Assembly: GCA_951812775.1 (NCBI GenBank)
Contig: OX638326.1
Span: forward strand, 320,335 to 384,334
Origin: an uncultured Alphaproteobacteria bacterium
Lineage (GTDB): Bacteria > Pseudomonadota > Alphaproteobacteria > MPNO01 > UBA2964
Direction of reading: 5' to 3'
DNA length: 64,000 bases
Shown here: positions 9,360 through 18,869 of the stretch, piece after piece
Position numbering within the stretch: position 1 is the stretch's first letter
How the letters are laid out: the number at the start of each line of letters is the position of its first letter
Notes under the pieces: generated by a model
Seen by the model: the letters and a program-made list of their open reading frames with translations, nothing else
Database searches by the model: none
What the model was told of the DNA's origin: nothing
Translations under genes and position numbers: made by a program

Positions 9360-10397
9360 ATGCGTGCCAGACCAAAAAGTTTGTTGGCGATTTCGTTGGC
9401 GGTGGGTCTAATCTCAGCACCAACATTCGCTCAAAGCGTTGAAAAACTTTACAAAAACAGAACGATCACGATAGCGATCCCATATGGCCCCGGCGGAACA
9501 TATGATAAGTACGGATCTACATTTGCAAATCACCTCGGCAAACATATTCCGGGAAAACCGAATGTCATTGTCCAACATCGCCCCGGCGCAGGTGGCGCGA
9601 AAGCGATGAATTACACCTATAATGTCGCCGCCAAGGACGGTACTTTTGGAATTGTTCCACTCGACGCAGCAGTCGTTAACCAACTGATCCGTCCTGATAA
9701 GATGAAATATCAAGCCAATAAGTTTCAATGGCTTGGCTCATCCAATCAAACGAATTCAGTGCTTGTCGTCCGCACGGATACTGGAATTAAATCAATCAAC
9801 GATATGAAGCGCATCGAAGCTATCGGTGCCAATAGCGGTAAATTTAATTCGGGCTATATGAATCCGAAACTGGCGATGGGTCTCTTGGGTCTGAAAGGTC
9901 GATTTGTCACCGGCTACAAAGGCTCTTCTCGTTCGATCCTCGCTATTGAACAAGGCGAAGCTCAAATGTCGAGTTTCAATTGGTTAACCTGGGATTCCAA
10001 AGTCCCGCATTGGTTTACCGGGAAGAAACCGTTTGCTCGTGCCATACTGCAAAATGGTACTGAGAAAGACCCGGCTTTACCGAACGTCCCGATGTTAGCC
10101 GATCTTGTAAAAGAACAAGACAAACCGCTTGTTGCTTTTATCGCCTCTATGGGCCCAATCGGTCGAGGAATCACAATGCCACCAGGCGTTCCCAAACACG
10201 TCATCAAAGCATTGCGCAAAGCGTATGATTCCATGAATGCGGATCCCGTTTTTAAAGCCGAACTTAAAAAACGTCGGTTGCGGCTGATTGCAAGTTCAGG
10301 AGAAAAAATTCAGTCGATTGTCAATAATGCCCTCAAGGCCTCATCTCCAGAGGTAATCAAGCGCGTTCGTGAGGTTATATTTGGTAGCGCCAGTTGA
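9360..10397 (+). CDS. tripartite tricarboxylate transporter substrate-binding protein (TctC/Bug family), orphan
   Basis: Signal peptide. Family N-terminal pattern IPYGPGGTYD...HRPGAGG...AAKDGT. RBS caggagg. Confidence 0.65.
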   Translation: MRARPKSLLAISLAVGLISAPTFAQSVEKLYKNRTITIAIPYGPGGTYDKYGSTFANHLGKHIPGKPNVIVQHRPGAGGAKAMNYTYNVAAKDGTFGIVPLDAAVVNQLIRPDKMKYQANKFQWLGSSNQTNSVLVVRTDTGIKSINDMKRIEAIGANSGKFNSGYMNPKLAMGLLGLKGRFVTGYKGSSRSILAIEQGEAQMSSFNWLTWDSKVPHWFTGKKPFARAILQNGTEKDPALPNVPMLADLVKEQDKPLVAFIASMGPIGRGITMPPGVPKHVIKALRKAYDSMNADPVFKAELKKRRLRLIASSGEKIQSIVNNALKASSPEVIKRVREVIFGSAS

Positions 10398-10476: not shown

Positions 10477-10496
10477 CCTCAGCCCAACTCGACCCC
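10477..10496 (-). repeat. partial Tn3-family terminal inverted repeat (outer 20 bp, GGGGTCGAGTTGGGCTGAGG on the minus strand)
   Basis: Identical to the outer 20 bp of the IR at 18033-18071. The match continues imperfectly through 5 flanking bp (tgcat vs ttcat). Confidence 0.6.
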
Positions 10497-10504
10497 TGCA
10501 TCGG

Positions 10505-10975
10505 GCGCTCGATGTTACCTTCCGGCAGGACGATTGCCGCATCAGAACCGGAAATGCCACAATCAATCATGCAGCAATGAACCTGCTACGCCGCGCGCCG
10601 GACAAACTCAGCCTGCCGCAAAAACGCCGATCAGCGGCATGGGACGACACCTACATGGAAGCCGTAATCCGACAATAGCCGTTCGGTCGATTCCCCTGGG
10701 GGGAAGGTCCAGGAACAAACCTTCATCGACAACTGGCCCGACGTTTTGGGATGCACGGCCACGATGCTTTCTGGCAAGGTGCCGCCAAGCCAACTGCTCA
10801 GGCAATTGTCGGCCCGTCCGCGCAAGCACGATCCGGCCATCGCGATGCGGGTATTTCATCAGCTTGAGGTCGGTTGCATTGACCTGCGTATGGCCGTTGA
10901 AGCGCCGGAAATGCTCATCTACTACGGTCGTGTTCAGGAACACGGCCAATCCACGGGCAAGCGCTTCGGGTAAGC
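10505..10975 (+). pseudogene. tnpA: decayed Tn3-family transposase (TnpA) C-terminal fragment with multiple frameshifts and stops
   Basis: Plus-strand frames give QEQTFIDNWPDVLGCTATMLSGKVPPSQLLRQLSARPRKHDPAIAMRVFHQLEV. This aligns to the NWPDVLRCIATMLSGHLLRKLAARPRQHDLALALREIGRVE segment of the tnpA at 16913-18028. Confidence 0.6.
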
Positions 10976-11049
10976 CGTGTTTGTTCTCATGAAATAGGTT
11001 CATGTGGTTCTCGAAGCCCAGCCCCGAATGATCGCCAAAAGCGGCAGGA

Positions 11050-11286
11050 TCAACAACGCTCGCTACCACGCGGCGCTTTTCCTCTTTCGACGAGAAGCGG
11101 CGTACCACGCAATAAAAGCCACTTTTCCGTCTCGTCATTACGCATGATCGCGTTGGGCTTCTTCAGGCCAGGCACGGGCCAGACGGTGCCGCTGTCATCT
11201 TGAACACCTGAAACCTTTCCGCTTTTCAATGCTTTTGTAAAAGTTGGCCGGGATACTTGGTAAATCTTTACCGCTTCTTTCATGGA
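11050..11286 (-). CDS. small helix-turn-helix DNA-binding protein (excisionase/AlpA-like HTH), about 78 aa from MKEAVK
   Basis: HTH-like motif KEAVKIYQVSRPTFTKALKSGKVSGVQDDSGTVWPV. The longer ORF to 11409 has no better start support. Confidence 0.4.
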   Translation of the reverse strand, partial: SMKEAVKIYQVSRPTFTKALKSGKVSGVQDDSGTVWPVPGLKKPNAIMRNDETEKWLLLRGTPLLVERGKAPRGSERC

Positions 11287-11469
11287 AACATTAGCCACGT
11301 TGAACACTCTATTCGCTGTCTTCTGGAGGGTTGCCAAATTCGGGCAAATCTGGCTCAAGGCCGGGGAAAGATGGCTGCTCAAAATTCGATCAGACCTACC
11401 TCCCCCCAATAACTTGTTGATTTCATTGGTTCGAAAATTTGCCCTTTCTTATGATCTACAGAAAGGAAG

Positions 11470-11528
11470 AAAAATCCACCCACGTTCGATCGGGGGTGCA
11501 CCCCCGATCGAACGTGGGTGGATTTTTT
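11470..11528. terminator. 58-bp perfect palindrome (24-bp arms, TGCA centre) flanked by A5/T6; probable bidirectional rho-independent terminator
   Basis: AAAAATCCACCCACGTTCGATCGGGGG TGCA CCCCCGATCGAACGTGGGTGGATTTTTT read directly from the sequence. Confidence 0.6.
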
Positions 11529-11581
11529 GACTGACAAACGTGACCAAGGAGCCTGTTCCACTACTTACAGCTAAACTTACC

Positions 11582-11617
11582 GTTGCGGCTTGACCGCGAA
11601 TTTTGAACAGCTACAAT
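11582..11617 (+). CRISPR. single 36-nt type II-C CRISPR repeat (GTTGCGGCTTGACCGCGAATTTTGAACAGCTACAAT) with no spacers
   Basis: Length and 3' end (GCTACAAT, -10-like) match the Neisseria-type II-C repeat architecture. It lies 73 bp downstream of cas2 on the opposite strand, and residues 12-28 are perfectly complementary to the candidate tracrRNA anti-repeat at 16398-16414. No further copy occurs within 70 bp on either side. Confidence 0.75.
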
Positions 11618-11690: not shown

Positions 11691-12035
11691 TCAGAACATC
11701 ACCAGTTGCTCCGGATTCTCACGAGCTTTGCGGCGGCCCTGATCCGATAAATGTATGATATCACGATATTGCCGGTCCGTGAAATTCAGGATTTGCACAT
11801 CGCCGGCATCGGGCAAGTTGCGTTCAATCCGGAGGACCCGGGCCGAAAACGCCTCTTTCCCGTTCACGAACCGCGCATAGACCGAAAATTGGCTGCGCTC
11901 GAACCCTTCGTCCAGCAGGAAATTGCGAAAGCTGCCCGCGTCCTTTTGCTGTTTCTTCGTGTCCGTGGGCAGGTCGAACATCACGAGAATCCACATGAGA
12001 CGATACCTCGACAACCGGGTGATGGTTGTCGTCAT
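11691..12035 (-). CDS. cas2: CRISPR-associated endoribonuclease Cas2 (type II)
   Basis: LSRYRLMWILVMFDLPTDTKKQQKDAGSFRNFLLDEGFERSQFSVYARF closely parallels Streptococcus type II Cas2. Overlaps the cas1 stop by 4 bp. Confidence 0.9.
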   Translation of the reverse strand: MTTTITRLSRYRLMWILVMFDLPTDTKKQQKDAGSFRNFLLDEGFERSQFSVYARFVNGKEAFSARVLRIERNLPDAGDVQILNFTDRQYRDIIHLSDQGRRKARENPEQLVMF

Positions 12036-12967
12036 TTTCCCAGTCCAGCCAGTGCAAGAGGATCGGGAGGGTCGGGCAAGGCGAGAGTCAATTTGGCCGC
12101 TTCAAAACTCTGCCCCAAGGATGTCGCCAGCTTTATCAGAGCGACCGAGACCGGTGTGACACCATCGCCCAAAGGCAGGTCTGTGGCTATCAGGCGGGCG
12201 AGTTGCTGCTTGGCCTCTGTGTCGACCTCTGGTCCACATTTTGCCGCGATGGCCCGAACCGTACAGTCGACCAGTGGGCGAAAGGGCTCCATCAGGTCAT
12301 CGGCCAAAGCAAAGGCGTTGCCGCGGTTTGCGTGAAATAGGCCTATGGTCGGATGCAGACCCGCGGCAACGACGGCGCGGGCGGTGGCGGCACGCAAGAC
12401 CGTGTAGCCATAATTCAGCAGCGCGTTTTCCCGATCTGCCGACGTGTTGCGGCGAAAATCCGAACCCATCATACGTGGCCAGTAGTAGCGGGCCGCCTGT
12501 GCCTCGATGTTGGTTCTGTCACCCGAAGATATCTTGCGGATCATCATTTCCAGTGGCGCGGACGGCTCGCCAATTGCCGAAAGGGCAGCTGCCTGCATTC
12601 TAACCTTGGAAGTTACGATCTGTTTCCAGGCCTGTTTGGTAAACGATGCCTTGGCGTTCCATTGTGCTCGCATTCGCGCTCCCTGTATGTGATGGCCTTC
12701 CAGCGGCATGAGAACGGATTTAGGGGCATGATTGGCGGCACAAAGGACCACCGGCGCACCGCGCTCGGCAAGCTCGACCAAAAGAGAGGAAGACCATGTT
12801 GTGCCATGGGCATGCACGATGACGCCTGCGATCTGGTCGAGCGGGGTGCGGCCGATTTCGGTCCCGTGTTCCGTGACCTTAAGAAAACCCCGGTCGCGCG
12901 ACAAATGGCGCCCGTCGGTTGCAATATCAATGATCTGATCCAATACAACACCCCGTGCAAAAGACAT
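12032..12967 (-). CDS. cas1: CRISPR-associated endonuclease Cas1 (type II)
   Basis: Cas1 signature ALLNYGYTVLRA. About 311 aa. Immediately downstream of cas9. Confidence 0.9.
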   Translation of the reverse strand: MSFARGVVLDQIIDIATDGRHLSRDRGFLKVTEHGTEIGRTPLDQIAGVIVHAHGTTWSSSLLVELAERGAPVVLCAANHAPKSVLMPLEGHHIQGARMRAQWNAKASFTKQAWKQIVTSKVRMQAAALSAIGEPSAPLEMMIRKISSGDRTNIEAQAARYYWPRMMGSDFRRNTSADRENALLNYGYTVLRAATARAVVAAGLHPTIGLFHANRGNAFALADDLMEPFRPLVDCTVRAIAAKCGPEVDTEAKQQLARLIATDLPLGDGVTPVSVALIKLATSLGQSFEAAKLTLALPDPPDPLALAGLGK

Positions 12968-13021: not shown

Positions 13022-16000
13022 TTACCTTTGCCGTAAGGGATTCCGCAGGCGACCCATTTCATCCACATGGACCCTTCGGACATTAGCTTTTACAAGGGGC
13101 CTTGCTCTCATACATCTGAAACGAAACGTATCGGTCCTGTCGCGGTTGCGAGCATCGGCATTGGCCTCGTTATGGGGGGCAATACAGAGCCCGTTGGCAC
13201 CCAGGCTTTGCACATAGCCAATGATTATTTTGCGATCTCGTTCTTCAATCGCAACCATGTCCCGTTTGAAGACCCGCAGCAACCGTTTCGCAGCGGGGTG
13301 GGGCCGTTTCACGGCGCCTGACTGATGCGCCTCGAAAGTCGTGATCACCTGGGGTTCGATCTTGCCGTCGGGCATGCGCCAGATCTCGTAGCAGTGATTA
13401 CTGTCGCCTTTGTAGGCCTTGAACTCCTTGCCATCACGGTCGGTAACCGGCACCCGGGCGCTTTTCTGCAAGGTCTCCACCATTCGCACACGGCGCAATC
13501 CGAAATACGGGTTGTCCGATTGATCCGGCCAGATCTTGGATTATACGGGCCAGGTGACGTTGCAGGTCCGCGTCGCGGATGTTGGTGCCTTTTGTGGTGA
13601 TCTTGATGTCATTTGCGCTAAGCGACCTCAGCGGCTTACGGCTGACCACCTTGCCGTCACGGGCCAATCCGTAGGCGGTATCATTGTGCAATTGCCCAGT
13701 CGTGCTGTCCTTGCCCGATGCGCGGGCGGCGGGGTCGATACGGCCATGATCGGCCCGGTGACTGACGATGATGCGATCGAGCTGCGCGGCGATGTCGGCC
13801 CGGAATTCTTCCCACGGTGGCGCGACGGAGCGGGCCACTTCTTCAGCGCCATCGCGTTTATCTCGGGAGGCCGTATCGCTGATGCGCTTGATCAAAGAAC
13901 GATCCGTTGCCGCGACCACGGCCGCGTCGATTGCGTGGTGGCGGTGATCCGTGCGGTTCTTGGCCTTCACCGCCCCATCCTTGTCGGGCAAAAGACTGTT
14001 CAGCCCCCAGTGCCGACGCAGCATTTCGGTCAGCCTTCCGGGCACGACCCAAACATGGGATTTGCTGTCGGTGCCATCGTAAAGAGCACCTAGATAGGCG
14101 CGGGCGATGCGCGACAGGTACTGCGTGTCCTTCAAGGCGCGGGTGGAAAAGTCATTTTCGCCCTCGAACCGCTCCATCGCGTCAGGCGCGAAACGCCAGG
14201 CTTTGTTTTTGGGCAGGTTCTTAAGGTTTGCGGCAATCACCTCCCACTGATCGGTCTCACCCCAAGCCTCCCATGGGGTCCTATTCGTCTTTTGCCGGTT
14301 GAATTCCTTCAGACAGAGGGTGCGGTTGGCGAAGCGGTCATCCAATGTGCGCGAATAGGGTAGGATGTGATCTACATCGCAGGAGCCATCGAAAAGCATG
14401 GCCGCACTGATCCGTTTCCCGGAATATGGACAGTTGCGGGTCATGACGTCTTCGCCAAGGTCTTCCCACAGCCGCAGCCGCATGCGGTTGGCCCCGGTAT
14501 CGGGCACGCCCAGTTCTTCCAGCTTTTTGCGGCGCCGGTCCGCTGCCTCGGTGTTTTTCTTGATGTCGCTCTCGACGGCGCGTTTTTGGTCTTTGGACAA
14601 TTTCAAATCGCGGGCCAGTTCTACCACGATCTCGTCAGGTTTGCCGTAGACAGTGATGATCCGGTTCACCAATCGGCGAAGCTGGTTCAGCCCGATATGC
14701 ACCGTGGGGTTGGTAATGCGACCGAAACGGGCGATGTCATCGTCGTTCTCGTCGTAGGTGCCCGGAATGACGTGACGGCCGAGCACCTCGCCATAATAGG
14801 GAAGTTCGTCCAATATCTCGCCGGTGCGCTCATCCGAGTGATGCCAGCCACAGCGGGCCACGGCCTCGCTATACGGGATCACCTCGGCCTCCAGCGCGGC
14901 AAGGATGCGAGAAGTGGCCGACAGTCCCAGCCGTCCGTAACCTTCGGGCAGGGGGGCATGGGCGACCTCTTTGGCATGGTTGCAATGAAGACTATGGGTG
15001 GAGGTCAGCCATGCGACCAGCCTGTCATGTTCCGCCTCGCTTTGCACGGCGCGGATGCGCTCGATGACCTGCCATTGTGCCTCGACAGCCAGCGTCGACC
15101 AGCGTGGCCCGAACCGTCGGGGGTCGGACAAGCTGGCACGGACCGGATCGCAGGAGATGGCATCCCGATTGGCGGTTTGAAGCGTGAAATTCTGATTGGA
15201 GCGCAAGCCGATCAGCGTGCCAAGCGCCTTGAGCTTCATTGACATGTTCGACGGCGATTCCGTGTGCTTTTTGTTGTCCAGCGCGTGGAGGATTTGGTCA
15301 CGTTCTTCCAGGGTCAGGCTACGTGCCGACTCGCCCCGTGCCGCAACGCGCAAGGCGTTGACTGTTTCAACCAGAATGCGCCGCTGGTGCAGGGGATGGG
15401 CGCTGGGGACGCGCCGTTCGTCGGTGAAGAGGCAAAGCCCCACCTCGGGCGTCTTCAAAGGGCGCTGGTGAAAAATGACCTTGCTGATCTCATCGCGCAG
15501 TTCATCAGTCAAAACATCAGGTTGAAACCGGGCTTGCGACGCCCACAGCTTGTCGAACTCCTCCCGCAGATGGCGGCGGTCGGGGTAGAAATCATAGCCC
15601 GGTTCCTCTTTCTCGGAATTGTTGCGTCGGGCGACGGACAAGTGGGTACGCACCGAAGGCACATGTTTCGGATCGTCCGCCGAAATGCGACGCATATGTA
15701 AAAACTCGCCATAGGTTCGGGCGCCCTTGACCATCATCGCTTTCTCCAGCCGCGCGGTGGCGTCCTTGATCTTGCCGCTATCATTGTCTCTGCGGTCGAT
15801 CTTGCGGTTGGATTTGAACCCACGACGTTGATTCAAATGAAACAGCGCCCGTCCGAGGTGCGAAAGCGGCAGTTCCCGATCCAATCCCTCGGCGCGAAGC
15901 GCATATGGATCGAGTTGCACCAGTTCCTTCGCCTTGTCAGGGTCCGATGGCATCAGCCCCGCCGAGGCCATGCGTTTCATCAGCGCGGCTTTACGGCGCA

Positions 16001-16193
16001 TAAACCTGTCGCGACGCCGACGCTGGGCACGGGCGGCACGGCGATCTACAGCTAATGAAGCTTTGGTTTTGGGATTGCGGCCGTCCGAGAATATGCGAAC
16101 GCCCCTGTCGACAACCTTTGTGACTTCACCGTTTTCGGTGGCATAAAGCCACCAGCCTATAGAATTTGTACCAACATCCAGGCCAAGACGCAT
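13022..16193 (-). CDS. cas9: Cas9 (type II-C, about 1070 aa) interrupted by a frameshift: main ORF 13434-16193 plus C-terminal PAM-interacting segment 13022-13498 in the +1 frame
   Basis: RuvC-I MRLGLDVGTNSIGWW, HNH DVDHILPYSRTLDDRFANRTLCLKEFNRQKTNR and RuvC-III HHAIDAAVVAATD are present. The C-terminal fragment VRMVETLQKSARVPVTDRDGKEFKAYKGDSNHCYEIW resembles II-C PI domains. The frames cross near 13505-13540. Confidence 0.9.
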
Positions 16194-16354: not shown

Positions 16355-16391
16355 TTGGTTGCGCCTTGACACGCAAATTTTGAACAGCTAT
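16355..16391 (+). repeat. degenerate CRISPR repeat copy (about 85% identical, 37 nt) immediately upstream of the tracrRNA; likely supplies its -10 box (TATACT)
   Basis: GTTGCGCCTTGACACGCAAATTTTGAACAGCTATACT compared with the repeat at 11582-11617. Confidence 0.65.
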
Positions 16392-16397
16392 ACTGAC

Positions 16398-16484
16398 GTC
16401 GTTCAAAATTCGCGGTCGGGCCGTTAACAAGCATTCGATTGCACCACATTGAGACGCAGGCTACGGCCTGCGTTTTCTTGTTTT
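16398..16484 (+). ncRNA. tracrRNA: candidate tracrRNA: anti-repeat, linker, GC hairpin terminator
   Basis: GTTCAAAATTCGCGGTC (16398-16414) is the exact reverse complement of repeat positions 11-27, and the following GGGCCGTTAAC extends the pairing. Hairpin ACGCAGGC-TACG-GCCTGCGT with a TTTCTTGTTTT tail at 16451-16481. Transcribed divergently from cas9. Confidence 0.7.
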
Positions 16485-16912
16485 CGGCTTGGCTCTTCTC
16501 AACGGTGTGCTTCCCGGATTTCCGCTGGAGTAATTCTACGAACAACCCTTGCCAACCCGGAAACCCCGCCTGCTACCCGTCTGGATATCGCTGTCCATTG
16601 CCTCCACCTCCCGCCCGGTTCCTCTTGAATCCAAGATATAAAACAATGCTAAATATTATTTAGCATTATAAAACACCGCCTTCCGCAAGGCGCTTGTCCT
16701 ACCCCTTTCCGGGCCGTTTTCCCCTCCAAAACAGGCGTTTCTCCGCGCCGGAATCTTCCGGCCATGCCACGGAAGCAATCATGAATGATGTCAATGCATT
16801 GCCGATGGCATGCAGGTCACATCAAAACGAACCTCGTTTTGATGTATAATCATGTCTTTTGCTAAGATAATGATTATTTTATGTCGGATATTTCCGGCTC
16901 AAAGAAAGATAC

Positions 16913-18028
16913 ATGGACCCGAACGACAGGCACAAAAACCAGCGCAAATTCATTGCAGCCAGAAAGGCCGAAGGGCTCAATCTGGGCTTGAGCAAAATGG
17001 CCAACGCCACCAGCACCCATGACTTTATGCAGCTCTCTCGGCTGTCGCGTTGGCATGTGGAAAGCGACTGCATGGCCCGCGCATTGGCTATGGTGATCGA
17101 GGCACAGGCGCGATTGCCGATGGCGCAATTCTGGGGGGGGGGGCAAACCGCCTCCAGCGACGGGCAGTTCTTTCCCGCCACTCGCCAAGGCGAGGCGCTG
17201 AATCCCATCAATGCAAAATATGGGCGGGAGCCCGGGCTGAAAGCCTACACCCATGTGACGGATCAATACGCGCCCTTCGCCACGCAGGTCATCCCCGCCA
17301 CGGTGAACGAGGCGCTGTATATCCTGGATGGGTTGCTCATGAATGAGGCAGGGCGGAAGATCAAAGAGCAGTACGCCGATACCGGCGGGTTCACTGACAT
17401 GGTCTTCGCAACCACATCATTGCTTGGATATCTCTTCCATCCCCGCATCCGTGACCTTGCCTCCAAGAGATTGCATGTCTTTGACACGCGATCTGTCCCA
17501 AAAGAACTGAAGGGCCTGACGGGTGATCGGATCCGTGAAACCACGATCATCGCCAATTGGCCCGACGTCTTGCGCTGTATCGCAACGATGCTGTCCGGCC
17601 ATCTCCTCAGGAAATTGGCGGCACGACCGCGGCAGCATGATCTGGCGCTTGCATTGCGCGAAATCGGACGGGTCGAACGAACGCTGTTCATCATTGAATG
17701 GCTGCTCAATACCGAGATGCAACGCCGCGCGAACATCGGCCTCAACAAAGGTGGGGCGCATCACGCACTGAAGGGGGCATTGCGGATCGGACGCCAAGGT
17801 GAAATCCGCGACCGCACAACAGAAGGCCGGCACTTCCGCATCGCAGGTCTGAACTTGTTGACTGCCATCATCATCTTTTGGAATACCAAGCAGCTGGGGA
17901 TCGCCGTCGCTCAACGCCAGAAAGCAGGGCTTGATTGCTCTCCAGACCTCCTGGCGCATATCTCGCCACTCGGATGGGCCCACATCCTTCCCACGGGCGA
18001 ATATCGGTGGCGGATAAAGAGGCCATGA
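16913..18028 (+). pseudogene. tnpA: 5'-truncated Tn3-family transposase TnpA (C-terminal 371 aa including the DDE region)
   Basis: ADTGGFTDMVFATTSLLGYLFHPRIRDL, ANWPDVL and HISPLGWAHILPTGEYRW are typical Tn3-family C-terminal blocks. There is no N-terminal half upstream. The stop lies 4 bp before the IR. Confidence 0.85.
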
Positions 18029-18032
18029 ACTG

Positions 18033-18071
18033 CTTAAAGGGGTTTTCCGCCCTCAGCCCAACTCGACCCCC
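18033..18071 (-). repeat. Tn3-family 38-bp terminal inverted repeat (GGGGGTCGAGTTGGGCTGAGGGCGGAAAACCCCTTTAAG read from the outer end)
   Basis: The GGGG outer end, internal GAAAAC and inner TAAG match Tn3/Tn1000/Tn21-type IR architecture. The outer end is 3 bp upstream of the tatD ATG. Confidence 0.8.
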
Positions 18072-18074
18072 TTC

Positions 18075-18869
18075 ATGCTGGTAGACAGCCACTGCCACCT
18101 GGATTTCGACAGCTTCGACGAAGATCGTGCTGAAACGATACAGCGGGCATTTGATGCCGGGGTTGGTATGCTCGTTACCATCTGTACACATTTCAGTAAA
18201 TTTGAAGAAATACTCGAGGTCGCAAAACTAGATACGAGAATTTATTGCTCTGTGGGTATTCATCCGCATCAGGTTGAGGAAGAACCAACTATCGCGCTCG
18301 AGAACCTGTTGGAAAGCGCAAAGCATCCCAAAGTAATCGGGATAGGGGAGACCGGACTGGACTATTATTACGATAAAAGTCCACGCGAAGACCAGAAATC
18401 CAGCTTTCGAACACACATCACTGCAGCCCGCGAAACGCAGCTACCCTTGATCGTACATACCAGAGATGCCGACGACGATATGGCTGCCATTCTTCGAGAG
18501 GAAATGCAGATCGGGTCCTTTCCATGCGTTTTACATTGTTTTTCCAGTGGCCGTGCTCTTGCTGAAACTGCGATTGATCTCGGGTTTTATCTGTCTTTGT
18601 CCGGTATTTTGACGTTCAAGAACGCTGGAGAGCTCCGCGGGATCATCCGTGATATGCCTGTCGATCGGTTGCTTGTTGAAACAGATTCACCTTATTTAGC
18701 ACCGGTTCCAAATCGAGGAAAAAGAAATGAGCCTTCCTTCGTGGTGCACACCGCGGAAAAGGCTTCTGAAATCAAAGGGTTGGCCCCTAAAACTTTTTCC
18801 GATACCACAACAGAAAACTTTTTCCGACTGTTTACAAAAGCACAATCAGAACAAGGCGCTCCGCAATGA
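18075..18869 (+). CDS. tatD: TatD family deoxyribonuclease/hydrolase
   Basis: MLVDSHCHLDF N-terminus. Conserved position after metG. Confidence 0.85.
   Translation: MLVDSHCHLDFDSFDEDRAETIQRAFDAGVGMLVTICTHFSKFEEILEVAKLDTRIYCSVGIHPHQVEEEPTIALENLLESAKHPKVIGIGETGLDYYYDKSPREDQKSSFRTHITAARETQLPLIVHTRDADDDMAAILREEMQIGSFPCVLHCFSSGRALAETAIDLGFYLSLSGILTFKNAGELRGIIRDMPVDRLLVETDSPYLAPVPNRGKRNEPSFVVHTAEKASEIKGLAPKTFSDTTTENFFRLFTKAQSEQGAPQ

What the first reader, a model, noticed from the sequence alone, without database searches (positions are those of the whole stretch)
13022..16193. cas9 split by a single frameshift just before the PAM-interacting C-terminus
RuvC-I, HNH and RuvC-III catalytic motifs are intact in the 919-codon ORF, which ends at 13434. 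The last 158 or so codons (VRMVETLQKSARVPVTDRDGKEFKAYKGDSNHCYEIW..., PI-domain-like) are in the +1 frame. The frames cross between the TAA at about 13540 and the NPYFG codons at about 13510, where a single-base indel would restore one reading frame. If genuine, Cas9 would bind guide RNA but lack PAM recognition. If it is a sequencing error, the protein is an intact II-C Cas9 of about 1070 aa.
Basis: seen in the sequence. Interest (0 to 1): 0.6.

Follow-up and report, generated by a model that had tools for sequence, protein, structure and literature searches.

The report
cas9 pseudogene from 53-bp deletion
A type II-C cas9 gene in a Rhodobacterales-type chromosome is broken by a 53-base deletion, not a single-base slip, and its CRISPR array has shrunk to one repeat, so this is an ordinary decaying defence locus.

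Summary
On the minus strand, a 919-codon ORF (13434-16193) carries the RuvC and HNH domains. The Cas9 C-terminus continues in the +1 frame down to the stop at 13022-13024.

The lesion is not a single-base indel. Against four intact loci of the same clade, the window lacks exactly 53 nt. All 119 database homologues listed (1064-1106 aa) and 14 related genomic loci keep this stretch as one ORF. The deletion removes 18 conserved codons, which form a confidently predicted helix between the WED-like region and the beta-rich PI-like domain. It also shifts the frame. No homopolymer longer than 3 nt lies nearby, so a base-calling error is unlikely.

Repairing the frame by one base would give a 1056-aa protein that still lacks the helix, not an intact Cas9 of about 1070 aa.

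The rest of the locus is half-decayed:
- cas1, cas2 and the tracrRNA are intact.
- The CRISPR array is a single repeat with no spacer; intact relatives have 13-27 repeats.
- The 7.6-kb island is flanked by transposon debris.

Best reading: a real, evolutionarily recent cas9 pseudogene in a decaying type II-C locus. It is ordinary and of low interest.

The parts
13530..16193 (-). cas9, 5' part in frame A (codons 1-888). It holds RuvC-I/II/III, the bridge helix, the REC lobe, HNH and the start of the WED-like region, and is homologous to residues 1-888 of intact 1074-aa relatives.
   Evidence: Foldseek full-length match to Nme1/Thermo/Geo/HpaCas9, E 1e-28 to 1e-25
13528..13529 (-). Deletion junction (...GATCTGG|CCGGATCAA...). 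53 nt present in all intact relatives are missing here. They correspond to residues 889-906 of P0004 (EGKAFELALSEFANSPRL), minus one base.
   Evidence: DNA alignment: 91 nt in the window against 144 nt in L001, L003, L004 and L005. The gap is private to the window among 119 homologues. Helix 890-902 has pLDDT 82-91.
13434..13529 (-). Out-of-frame tail of ORF A: 31 nonsense codons (AGSIGQPVF...GYRP) and the TGA stop.
13022..13528 (-). cas9, 3' part in frame B (+1): 168 codons (PDQSDNPYFGLRRVR...RQR) plus the stop. It is homologous to residues 907-1074 of intact relatives, the beta-rich PI-like domain.
12032..12967 (-). cas1, intact. 303 aa align with homologues from a TTG at 12943; the ATG at 12967 would add 8 aa.
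   Evidence: Pfam Cas_Cas1 5e-33; 85-86% identity, no gaps
11691..12035 (-). cas2, intact. 101 aa align with homologues from the ATG at 11996.
   Evidence: Pfam CRISPR_Cas2 1.3e-13; 88-91% identity
11582..11617 (+). Single 36-nt CRISPR repeat (GTTGCGGCTTGACCGCGAATTTTGAACAGCTACAAT), with no spacer and no second repeat. It carries a promoter-like TTGACC-N16-TACAAT.
   Evidence: Only match in 64 kb at up to 3 mismatches. It differs by 1 nt from the repeat of the arrays in L001, L003 and L004. No degenerate second copy: best 16/36, below the shuffle mean. Homology to all loci ends at 11582. Promoter scan.
16401..16486 (+). tracrRNA gene, divergent from cas9. It has an anti-repeat (GTTCAAAATTCGCGGTCGGGCCGTTAAC) and an intrinsic terminator. 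The promoter at 16366-16394 matches 11 of 12 consensus positions.
   Evidence: 87-95% identical in most related loci (78% in L014; no hit in the most distant loci). Promoter and terminator. Repeat:anti-repeat duplex fold -69.9 kcal/mol, z -11.6.
16913..18070 (+). Right border of the island: the C-terminal 371 aa of a Tn3-family transposase (the N-terminal part is missing) and its 38-bp terminal inverted repeat (18033-18070), which abuts the tatD start.
   Evidence: Pfam DDE_Tnp_Tn3 8.4e-114
10477..11581 (.). Left border of the island:
- a 20-bp copy of the Tn3 inverted-repeat tip (10477-10496);
- an ISAs1-like transposase fragment;
- a second Tn3 tnpA fragment;
- an Eco57I-type methylase fragment;
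- an HTH ORF;
- a 46-nt hairpin.

Best explanation
This is a genuine cas9 pseudogene in a decaying type II-C CRISPR-Cas locus.

A 53-bp deletion inside cas9 removed 18 conserved codons and shifted the frame by +1. The removed codons form a helix between the WED-like region and the PI-like domain. Translation therefore ends after 888 authentic residues plus 31 nonsense residues.

The product has the RuvC, HNH and REC parts but no PAM-interacting domain, so it cannot license DNA targets (inferred from what is known of Cas9 mechanism). The downstream 168 codons have no ribosome-binding site or conserved start of their own and are most likely not translated (inferred).

Separately, the CRISPR array has collapsed or been cut down to one repeat with no spacer. 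The locus could not provide immunity even with an intact Cas9.

cas1, cas2 and the tracrRNA are still intact, and Cas9 shows no excess divergence. The inactivation is therefore recent on the scale of this clade's divergence.

The module lies in a 7.6-kb island of mobile-element debris between a tctC-like gene and tatD.
For: 1. Exactly 53 nt are missing relative to four intact loci: 91 nt against 144 nt between the same conserved motifs.
2. The 18-aa gap is private to the window among 119 homologues, which are 1064-1106 aa. All 14 related genomic loci encode one Cas9 ORF of 1061-1106 aa.
3. The deleted residues form a helix predicted at pLDDT 82-91 in two models. Residues 800-1074 match only Cas9 C-terminal regions: the 17 best PDB hits at E<=1e-3 are all Cas9 or Cas9d.
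4. No homopolymer longer than 3 nt lies within 13480-13560, so this is not a typical base-calling frameshift.
5. There is independent decay in the same locus. It has one repeat only, against 13, 19 and 27 repeats in intact relatives. Homology to every related locus stops at the end of that repeat. Truncated transposase and methylase fragments lie on both sides.
6. The inactivation looks recent. Cas1 and Cas2 are full length at 85-91% identity. The tracrRNA is 87-95% identical in most related loci. The Cas9/Cas1 divergence ratio is 1.54, within the 1.38-1.88 seen for most intact loci. There are 10 private changes at >=97%-conserved columns, equal to the maximum among homologues but not beyond it.
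Against: - No reads and no second assembly of this organism were available. The source genome is absent from the searchable collections, and neither the junction nor the adjacent unique sequence occurs in the metagenome collection. An assembly artefact therefore cannot be formally excluded.
- The nearest intact relative is only 79% identical. The ancestral sequence at the breakpoint, and hence any microhomology, cannot be reconstructed.
- Intact cas1, cas2 and tracrRNA could mean residual selection on the locus rather than mere recency.
- An orphan array elsewhere in the 4.15-Mb chromosome was not excluded. Only 64 kb were searched.
- Loss of function is inferred, not measured.
Confidence: 0.85

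Rival explanations
1. Assembly or sequencing artefact. The real genome has an intact cas9 of about 1074 codons, and the 53 nt were lost during consensus or assembly.
For: No read data could be checked. The genome is a single public assembly with no close relative found. The rest of cas9 shows no decay beyond the normal range, which is also what an intact gene would show.
Against: - The missing stretch is 53 nt of unique, non-repetitive coding sequence. No homopolymer longer than 3 nt lies nearby, and no flanking repeats were reported. Base-calling errors give 1-2-nt indels, not this.
- A G11 run in the neighbouring tnpA fragment keeps its frame.
- cas1, cas2 and the large ORFs that tile the rest of the window are unbroken.
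- The same locus has independent lesions, a lost array and truncated neighbours, that cannot be consensus errors.
Confidence: 0.08
2. The truncated 919-aa Cas9 is still useful. It could act as a PAM-independent RNA-binding or regulatory protein together with the conserved tracrRNA, or in some role with Cas1-Cas2. This would explain why the other parts stay intact.
For: - ORF A keeps all the nuclease and REC domains.
- The tracrRNA has an 11/12 promoter and is conserved.
- cas1 and cas2 are intact.
- The lone repeat carries a promoter-like site matching 10 of 12 positions.
Against: - The allele is unique. None of 119 homologues or 14 loci shares the truncation, so there is no sign it has been maintained by selection.
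- The protein ends in 31 nonsense residues and lacks a conserved helix plus the whole PI-like domain.
- Without a second repeat, no crRNA can be made.
- Intact neighbours are equally explained by a recent event.
Confidence: 0.04
3. Programmed +1 ribosomal frameshifting, or a natural two-gene split Cas9 in which ORF B is translated separately and the halves reassemble.
For: The two frames overlap by about 100 nt (13434-13540). ORF B has possible starts: TTG at 13498 and ATG at about 13483.
Against: - The frame change is created by a deletion that no relative has, so there is no conserved recoding site.
- No Shine-Dalgarno-like motif precedes the candidate starts (read from the sequence).
- Those codons are internal residues (FGLRRVRL/M) in intact homologues.
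- Even a perfect frameshift would give a protein lacking the 18 conserved residues.
Confidence: 0.02

Closest known systems
Type II-C Cas9 of marine Rhodobacterales / Paracoccaceae. Examples: Litoreibacter roseus Cas9 (P0010, 1074 aa), Sulfitobacter sp. M57 (P0048), Rhodobacteraceae bacterium HLUCCA08 (P0034 / L006).
   Same: - 71-79% protein identity over the whole length.
- The same tracrRNA-cas9-cas1-cas2-repeat order.
- The same 36-nt repeat apart from 1 nt.
- The same tracrRNA.
   Different: - The window copy lacks 53 nt (18 codons minus one base) and is frameshifted.
- Its array has 1 repeat instead of 13-27.
- It sits in a chromosome between transposon fragments.
Structurally characterised type II-C Cas9s: Nme1Cas9 (6JDQ, 6JE4), GeoCas9 / ThermoCas9 (8JTJ, 9AR4), HpaCas9 (8HNT).
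   Same: - Sequence matches over the RuvC/BH/REC and HNH/RuvC-III regions, E 1e-79 to 1e-60 with the family profile.
- End-to-end Foldseek matches, E 1e-28 to 1e-25.
- The C-terminal 275 residues match their WED+PI parts.
- In GeoCas9 the PAM contacts lie between about 926 and 1038 (bioRxiv 10.1101/2024.06.05.595678). In Nme1Cas9 they are Q981, H1024, T1027 and N1029 (bioRxiv 10.1101/2023.01.17.524369). Those residues correspond by position to the part that is out of frame here.
   Different: - Only about 20% identity.
- The C-terminal region cannot be aligned by sequence, so the WED/PI boundary here is placed from predicted secondary structure and position, not from a residue-level superposition.
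Degenerate or remnant CRISPR-Cas loci with cas pseudogenes, known in many bacteria. The comparison with Francisella tularensis and some Campylobacter and Neisseria strains rests on my own knowledge and was not checked here.
   Same: An effector gene inactivated by a deletion or frameshift, loss of the array, and an association with mobile-element activity.
   Different: Nothing in kind. This is one more instance, caught early, with the adaptation genes and tracrRNA still intact.

Membership tests
Type II-C CRISPR-Cas system (functional) | cas9 with RuvC and HNH nuclease domains | tested here: met
   Pfam HNH_4 and RuvC_III. PDB profile hits to II-C Cas9s at E 1e-79. Foldseek E 1e-28.
Type II-C CRISPR-Cas system (functional) | Cas9 encoded as one continuous ORF that includes the WED and PAM-interacting domains | tested here: not met
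   A 53-nt deletion with a +1 frameshift at 13529|13528. It is absent from 119 homologues and 14 loci.
Type II-C CRISPR-Cas system (functional) | cas1 and cas2 adjacent, with no csn2 or cas4 | tested here: met
   Cas_Cas1 and CRISPR_Cas2 lie directly downstream of cas9. Both are full length against homologues, and no further gene lies before the repeat.
Type II-C CRISPR-Cas system (functional) | tracrRNA with an anti-repeat complementary to the CRISPR repeat | tested here: met
   16401-16486 (+) has a conserved block, a promoter and a terminator. It forms a 27-bp duplex with the repeat. Expression was not tested.
Type II-C CRISPR-Cas system (functional) | CRISPR array of at least two repeats separated by spacers | tested here: not met
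   There is one repeat in the 64-kb window and no degenerate neighbour. Relatives have 13-27 repeats. The rest of the chromosome was not available.
Sequencing-error frameshift | An indel of 1-2 nt, typically in a homopolymer, whose correction restores the full-length protein | tested here: not met
   The lesion is 53 nt and the longest nearby homopolymer is 3 nt. Correcting the frame gives 1056 aa, lacking 18 conserved residues. Reads were not available.
Programmed ribosomal frameshift / recoding | A frameshift site conserved among orthologues | tested here: not met
   None of 119 homologues or 14 loci has a frame change here.
Tn3-family transposon (context of the island) | A complete tnpA (about 1000 aa) bounded by two 38-bp inverted repeats in inverted orientation | tested here: not met
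   Only the C-terminal 371 aa of tnpA remain. There is one full inverted repeat at 18033-18070, and the 20-bp tip copy at 10477-10496 is in direct orientation. These are remnants, not an active element.

The most novel reading that the evidence does not exclude
The truncated Cas9 (RuvC, HNH and REC intact; no PI domain) is kept because it still works. It would act with the conserved, strongly promoted tracrRNA and the promoter-bearing lone repeat in some PAM-independent or regulatory role. Alternatively, the locus would be a 'reset' state that Cas1-Cas2 could re-seed. A weaker side reading is that these II-C modules travel as cargo of Tn3-family elements.
Probability: 0.04. Interest if true: 0.5.

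Novelty: already known. Interest (0 to 1): 0.1.

Why it matters
It matters little beyond correct annotation. This cas9 should be labelled a pseudogene caused by a 53-bp internal deletion. It should not be 'repaired' by a one-base correction or counted as a functional II-C system or as a Cas9 of about 1070 aa.

It is a tidy example of an early stage of CRISPR-Cas loss. The effector and array go first, while the adaptation genes and tracrRNA are still intact, all within mobile-element debris. Such cases are useful only as data points for surveys of CRISPR-Cas turnover in marine Rhodobacterales.

Tried and rejected
- **Finding the source genome or a close strain, to check the junction independently.** Exact-protein look-ups for the 919-aa ORF, TatD and the TctC-like protein found nothing on record. 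The species-representative genome scan returned only relatives at 79% identity or less. Two metagenome scans, one for the junction and one for the unique left flank, found nothing. The plasmid collection has no near copy of the cas module. Cluster look-up gave no names or accessions.
- **Residue-level mapping of the deletion onto solved Cas9 structures by sequence.** phmmer and profile alignments stop near residue 800. A profile of the C-terminus alone finds only chance hits. I therefore relied on AlphaFold secondary structure and Foldseek. The full-length model is poor overall (pLDDT 58.6, pTM 0.31), so only local features were used.
- **Rfam scan of the locus.** It gave nothing meaningful at E<=1. 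The tracrRNA was identified from the anti-repeat, conservation, promoter and terminator instead.
- **dN/dS.** Not attempted, because the nearest relative is only 79% identical in protein and 73-76% in DNA, so synonymous sites are saturated. I used private changes at conserved columns and the Cas9/Cas1 divergence ratio instead. Neither shows clear relaxation.
- **Breakpoint microhomology.** The ancestral sequence is unknown. At most 1 nt can be inferred from relatives, so no mechanism is claimed.
- **A degenerate second repeat.** Considered and rejected.
- **Literature search on cas9 pseudogenes.** It returned nothing directly relevant.
Full report
**Observation**

On the minus strand there is a 919-codon ORF (13434..16193), followed by a 158-codon ORF (13022..13498) in the +1 frame. 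The long ORF carries Pfam HNH_4 and RuvC_III. The second frame is open from the TAA at 13543-13541 and reads ...SKIWPDQSDNPYFGLRRVRMVETLQ....

A conceptual join of the two pieces hits 6520 proteins at E<=1e-20. The nearest intact ones are 79% identical and 1074 aa. They come from marine Rhodobacterales, for example Litoreibacter roseus, Sulfitobacter and Pseudooceanicola. The exact 919-aa product is already in public databases, on a 4,149,033-bp contig, which is presumably a finished chromosome.

**What the lesion really is**

- Intact homologues read HLARVTRGL-EGKAFELALSEFANSPRL-PDQSDNPYFGLRRVR.
- In the window, frame A gives HLARIIQDL, then one base, then frame B gives PDQSDNPYFGLRRVR.
- A nucleotide alignment with four intact loci (L001, L003, L004, L005) shows 91 nt in the window against 144 nt in each of the others between the same two conserved motifs. 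That is a 53-nt deletion, with the junction ...GATCTGG|CCGGATCAA... at 13529|13528.
- In a 120-sequence protein alignment the 18-residue gap is private to the window. Apart from it, the window has only one 1-aa insertion and one 1-aa deletion of its own.
- All 14 related genomic loci that could be analysed encode a single Cas9 ORF of 1061-1106 aa.

So the gene is broken by one event, but that event is not a single-base indel. Removing one base would restore the frame and give a 1056-aa protein without 18 conserved residues, not an intact Cas9 of about 1070 aa. The longest homopolymer within 13480-13560 is 3 nt, so the usual cause of spurious frameshifts is absent.

**Where the deletion lies in the protein**

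Sequence comparison with solved Cas9 structures aligns only up to about residue 800, so I used structure prediction.

- The full-length AlphaFold model of the intact homologue P0004 is poor overall (pLDDT 58.6), but it is locally confident at 850-1050.
- A separate model of residues 800-1074 gives pLDDT 71-91 for residues 840-930.
- Both models show two helices, 875-885 and 890-902, followed by a beta-rich domain from about 919 to 1046.
- The deletion (residues 889-906) removes the second helix entirely.
- Foldseek aligns the full model end to end with Nme1Cas9, ThermoCas9, GeoCas9 and HpaCas9, at E 1e-28 to 1e-25.
- Foldseek aligns the C-terminal model only with Cas9 C-terminal regions. The 17 best hits are all Cas9 or Cas9d.
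- Published PAM contacts lie at about 926-1038 in GeoCas9 and at 981-1029 in Nme1Cas9.

By position, the out-of-frame 168 codons correspond to the PAM-interacting domain. The deletion sits at or just before the WED/PI boundary. The exact boundary is inferred, not superposed.

**The rest of the locus**

- cas1 (303 aa aligned, 85-86% identity) and cas2 (101 aa, 88-91% identity) are full length, with no gaps.
- Upstream of cas9 and divergent from it is a tracrRNA gene at about 16401-16486 (+). It has an 11/12 sigma-70 promoter at 16366-16394, an anti-repeat and an intrinsic terminator.
- This tracrRNA block is 87-95% identical in most related loci, whereas the coding DNA is 70-76% identical.
- The tracrRNA pairs with the repeat over 27 bp.
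- Intact relatives carry arrays of 13, 19 and 27 repeats of ATTGTAGCTGTTCAAAATTCGCGGTCCAGCCGCAAC, starting about 75 nt after cas2.
- The window has exactly one copy, at 11582-11617, with one mismatch, at the same position.
- There is no second copy, not even a degenerate one. Homology to every related locus ends at the repeat's edge.

The locus therefore has no spacer and could not confer immunity even with an intact Cas9.

**Context**

The module lies in a 7.6-kb island between a TctC-like binding-protein gene (ends at 10397) and tatD (starts at 18075).

- To the right are the C-terminal 371 aa of a Tn3-family transposase (DDE_Tnp_Tn3, 8.4e-114) and its 38-bp terminal repeat at 18033-18070.
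- To the left is a 20-bp copy of the repeat tip in direct orientation (10477-10496).
- Also to the left are an ISAs1-like transposase fragment, a second Tn3 tnpA fragment and an HTH ORF.
- There is an Eco57I-type methylase fragment that is 88-89% identical to genes on gammaproteobacterial plasmids.
- There is also a long hairpin.
- Related intact II-C loci also sit on mobile DNA. L004 carries Rep3, resolvases and Tn3. L003 carries an integrase and Mob_Pre.

This is a region of repeated insertion and deletion, which fits a real deletion in cas9.

**How old is the lesion?**

- At columns conserved in at least 97% of homologues, the window has 10 private changes in the 5' part and 1 in the 3' part. 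Homologues average 3.9 and 0.4, with maxima of 10 and 3.
- The ratio of Cas9 to Cas1 divergence is 1.54 for the window, against 1.38-1.88 for most intact loci.

There is thus no clear relaxation of constraint. The deletion is recent relative to the roughly 20% protein divergence from the nearest known relative. Finer dating is not possible without closer genomes.

**Real or artefact?**

I could not check reads or a second assembly. The source genome is not in the searchable collections, and no near relative carries the junction.

The arguments for a real lesion are:
- its size (53 nt);
- the unique, non-repetitive sequence around it;
- the intact frames of the neighbouring genes, and of a G11 run in the tnpA fragment;
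- the independent structural decay of the same locus.

I put 0.85 on a genuine pseudogene and about 0.08 on an assembly artefact. The remainder goes to residual function of the truncated protein (0.04) or to recoding or a split gene (0.02). Both of those lack any conservation support.

**Comparison and verdict**

The gene belongs to the well-populated Rhodobacterales clade of type II-C Cas9. As a system, the locus fails two defining features, a continuous effector ORF and an array, so it is a remnant. Decaying CRISPR-Cas loci with effector pseudogenes are commonplace (own knowledge).

The finding is real. Its description should be corrected from a 'single frameshift, possibly a sequencing error' to a '53-bp internal deletion in a spacer-less, decaying locus'. 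It is ordinary: interest 0.1.

Noticed in passing
window 11582-11617 (+): The lone CRISPR repeat differs from the clade's consensus repeat by one G>T. The change turns CTGGACC into CTTGACC, giving TTGACC-N16-TACAAT (10 of 12 sigma-70 positions). As in other II-C systems with promoters inside the repeats, it would fire towards cas2 on the antisense strand, but with no downstream repeat it cannot yield a crRNA.
   Followed up: partly
window 16401-16486 (+); L001 and L003-L014: The tracrRNA block is far better conserved (87-95% identity in most loci) than the adjacent protein-coding DNA (70-76%). It has an 11/12 promoter. Rfam has no family that detects it.
   Followed up: partly
window 10477-10496 and 18033-18070: A 38-bp Tn3-family terminal repeat (reverse complement GGGGTCGAGTTGGGCTGAGGGCGGAAAACCCCTTTAAG) lies 5 nt after the stop of the tnpA fragment and 4 nt before the tatD start. 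An exact 20-bp copy of its tip lies 7.6 kb away in direct, not inverted, orientation, next to the tctC terminator. The whole cas island lies between them. How this arrangement arose is unexplained.
   Followed up: partly
window 10848-11198 (-): A fragment of an Eco57I-type restriction-modification methylase gene is 88-89% identical in DNA to genes on plasmids of Morganella, Citrobacter, Pseudomonas, Aeromonas and E. coli. It is a remnant of DNA shared across bacterial classes, sitting in an alphaproteobacterial chromosome.
   Followed up: partly
window 10497-10675 (+) and 10698-10851 (+): There is a C-terminal fragment of an ISAs1-like transposase (...LHRALDVTFRQDDCRIRTGNA...) and a second short Tn3 tnpA fragment. 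The latter is 74% identical to 17532-17599 within the window and 86% identical to a tnpA fragment next to the array in L004. Family names are assigned by eye; Pfam gave no hit for the overlapping ORF.
   Followed up: no
window 11476-11521: A perfect 20-bp-stem hairpin (CCACCCACGTTCGATCGGGGGTGCACCCCCGATCGAACGTGGGTGG) has T-runs on both strands, like a bidirectional terminator. It lies about 60 nt beyond the lone repeat, where the array would have been.
   Followed up: no
window 17133-17143: A run of 11 G lies inside the Tn3 transposase fragment. The reading frame is kept across it, which is a small point in favour of the assembly's accuracy at homopolymers.
   Followed up: no
window 13022-13528 (-), about codons 985-1005 of the joined protein: The out-of-frame 3' part has a private one-codon insertion (AIEERD against AI-ERD) and a private one-codon deletion (SLG-ANG against SLHVANG) 16 codons apart. 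The sequence between them is conserved. These may be lineage variation or the first signs of drift.
   Followed up: partly
L003, L004 (related loci): Intact II-C loci of this clade sit on mobile DNA. L004 lies between Rep3 replication genes, resolvases, IS630 and Tn3 transposase pieces. L003 lies between a phage-type integrase and a Mob_Pre relaxase. The module seems to spread on plasmids and islands in Rhodobacterales.
   Followed up: no
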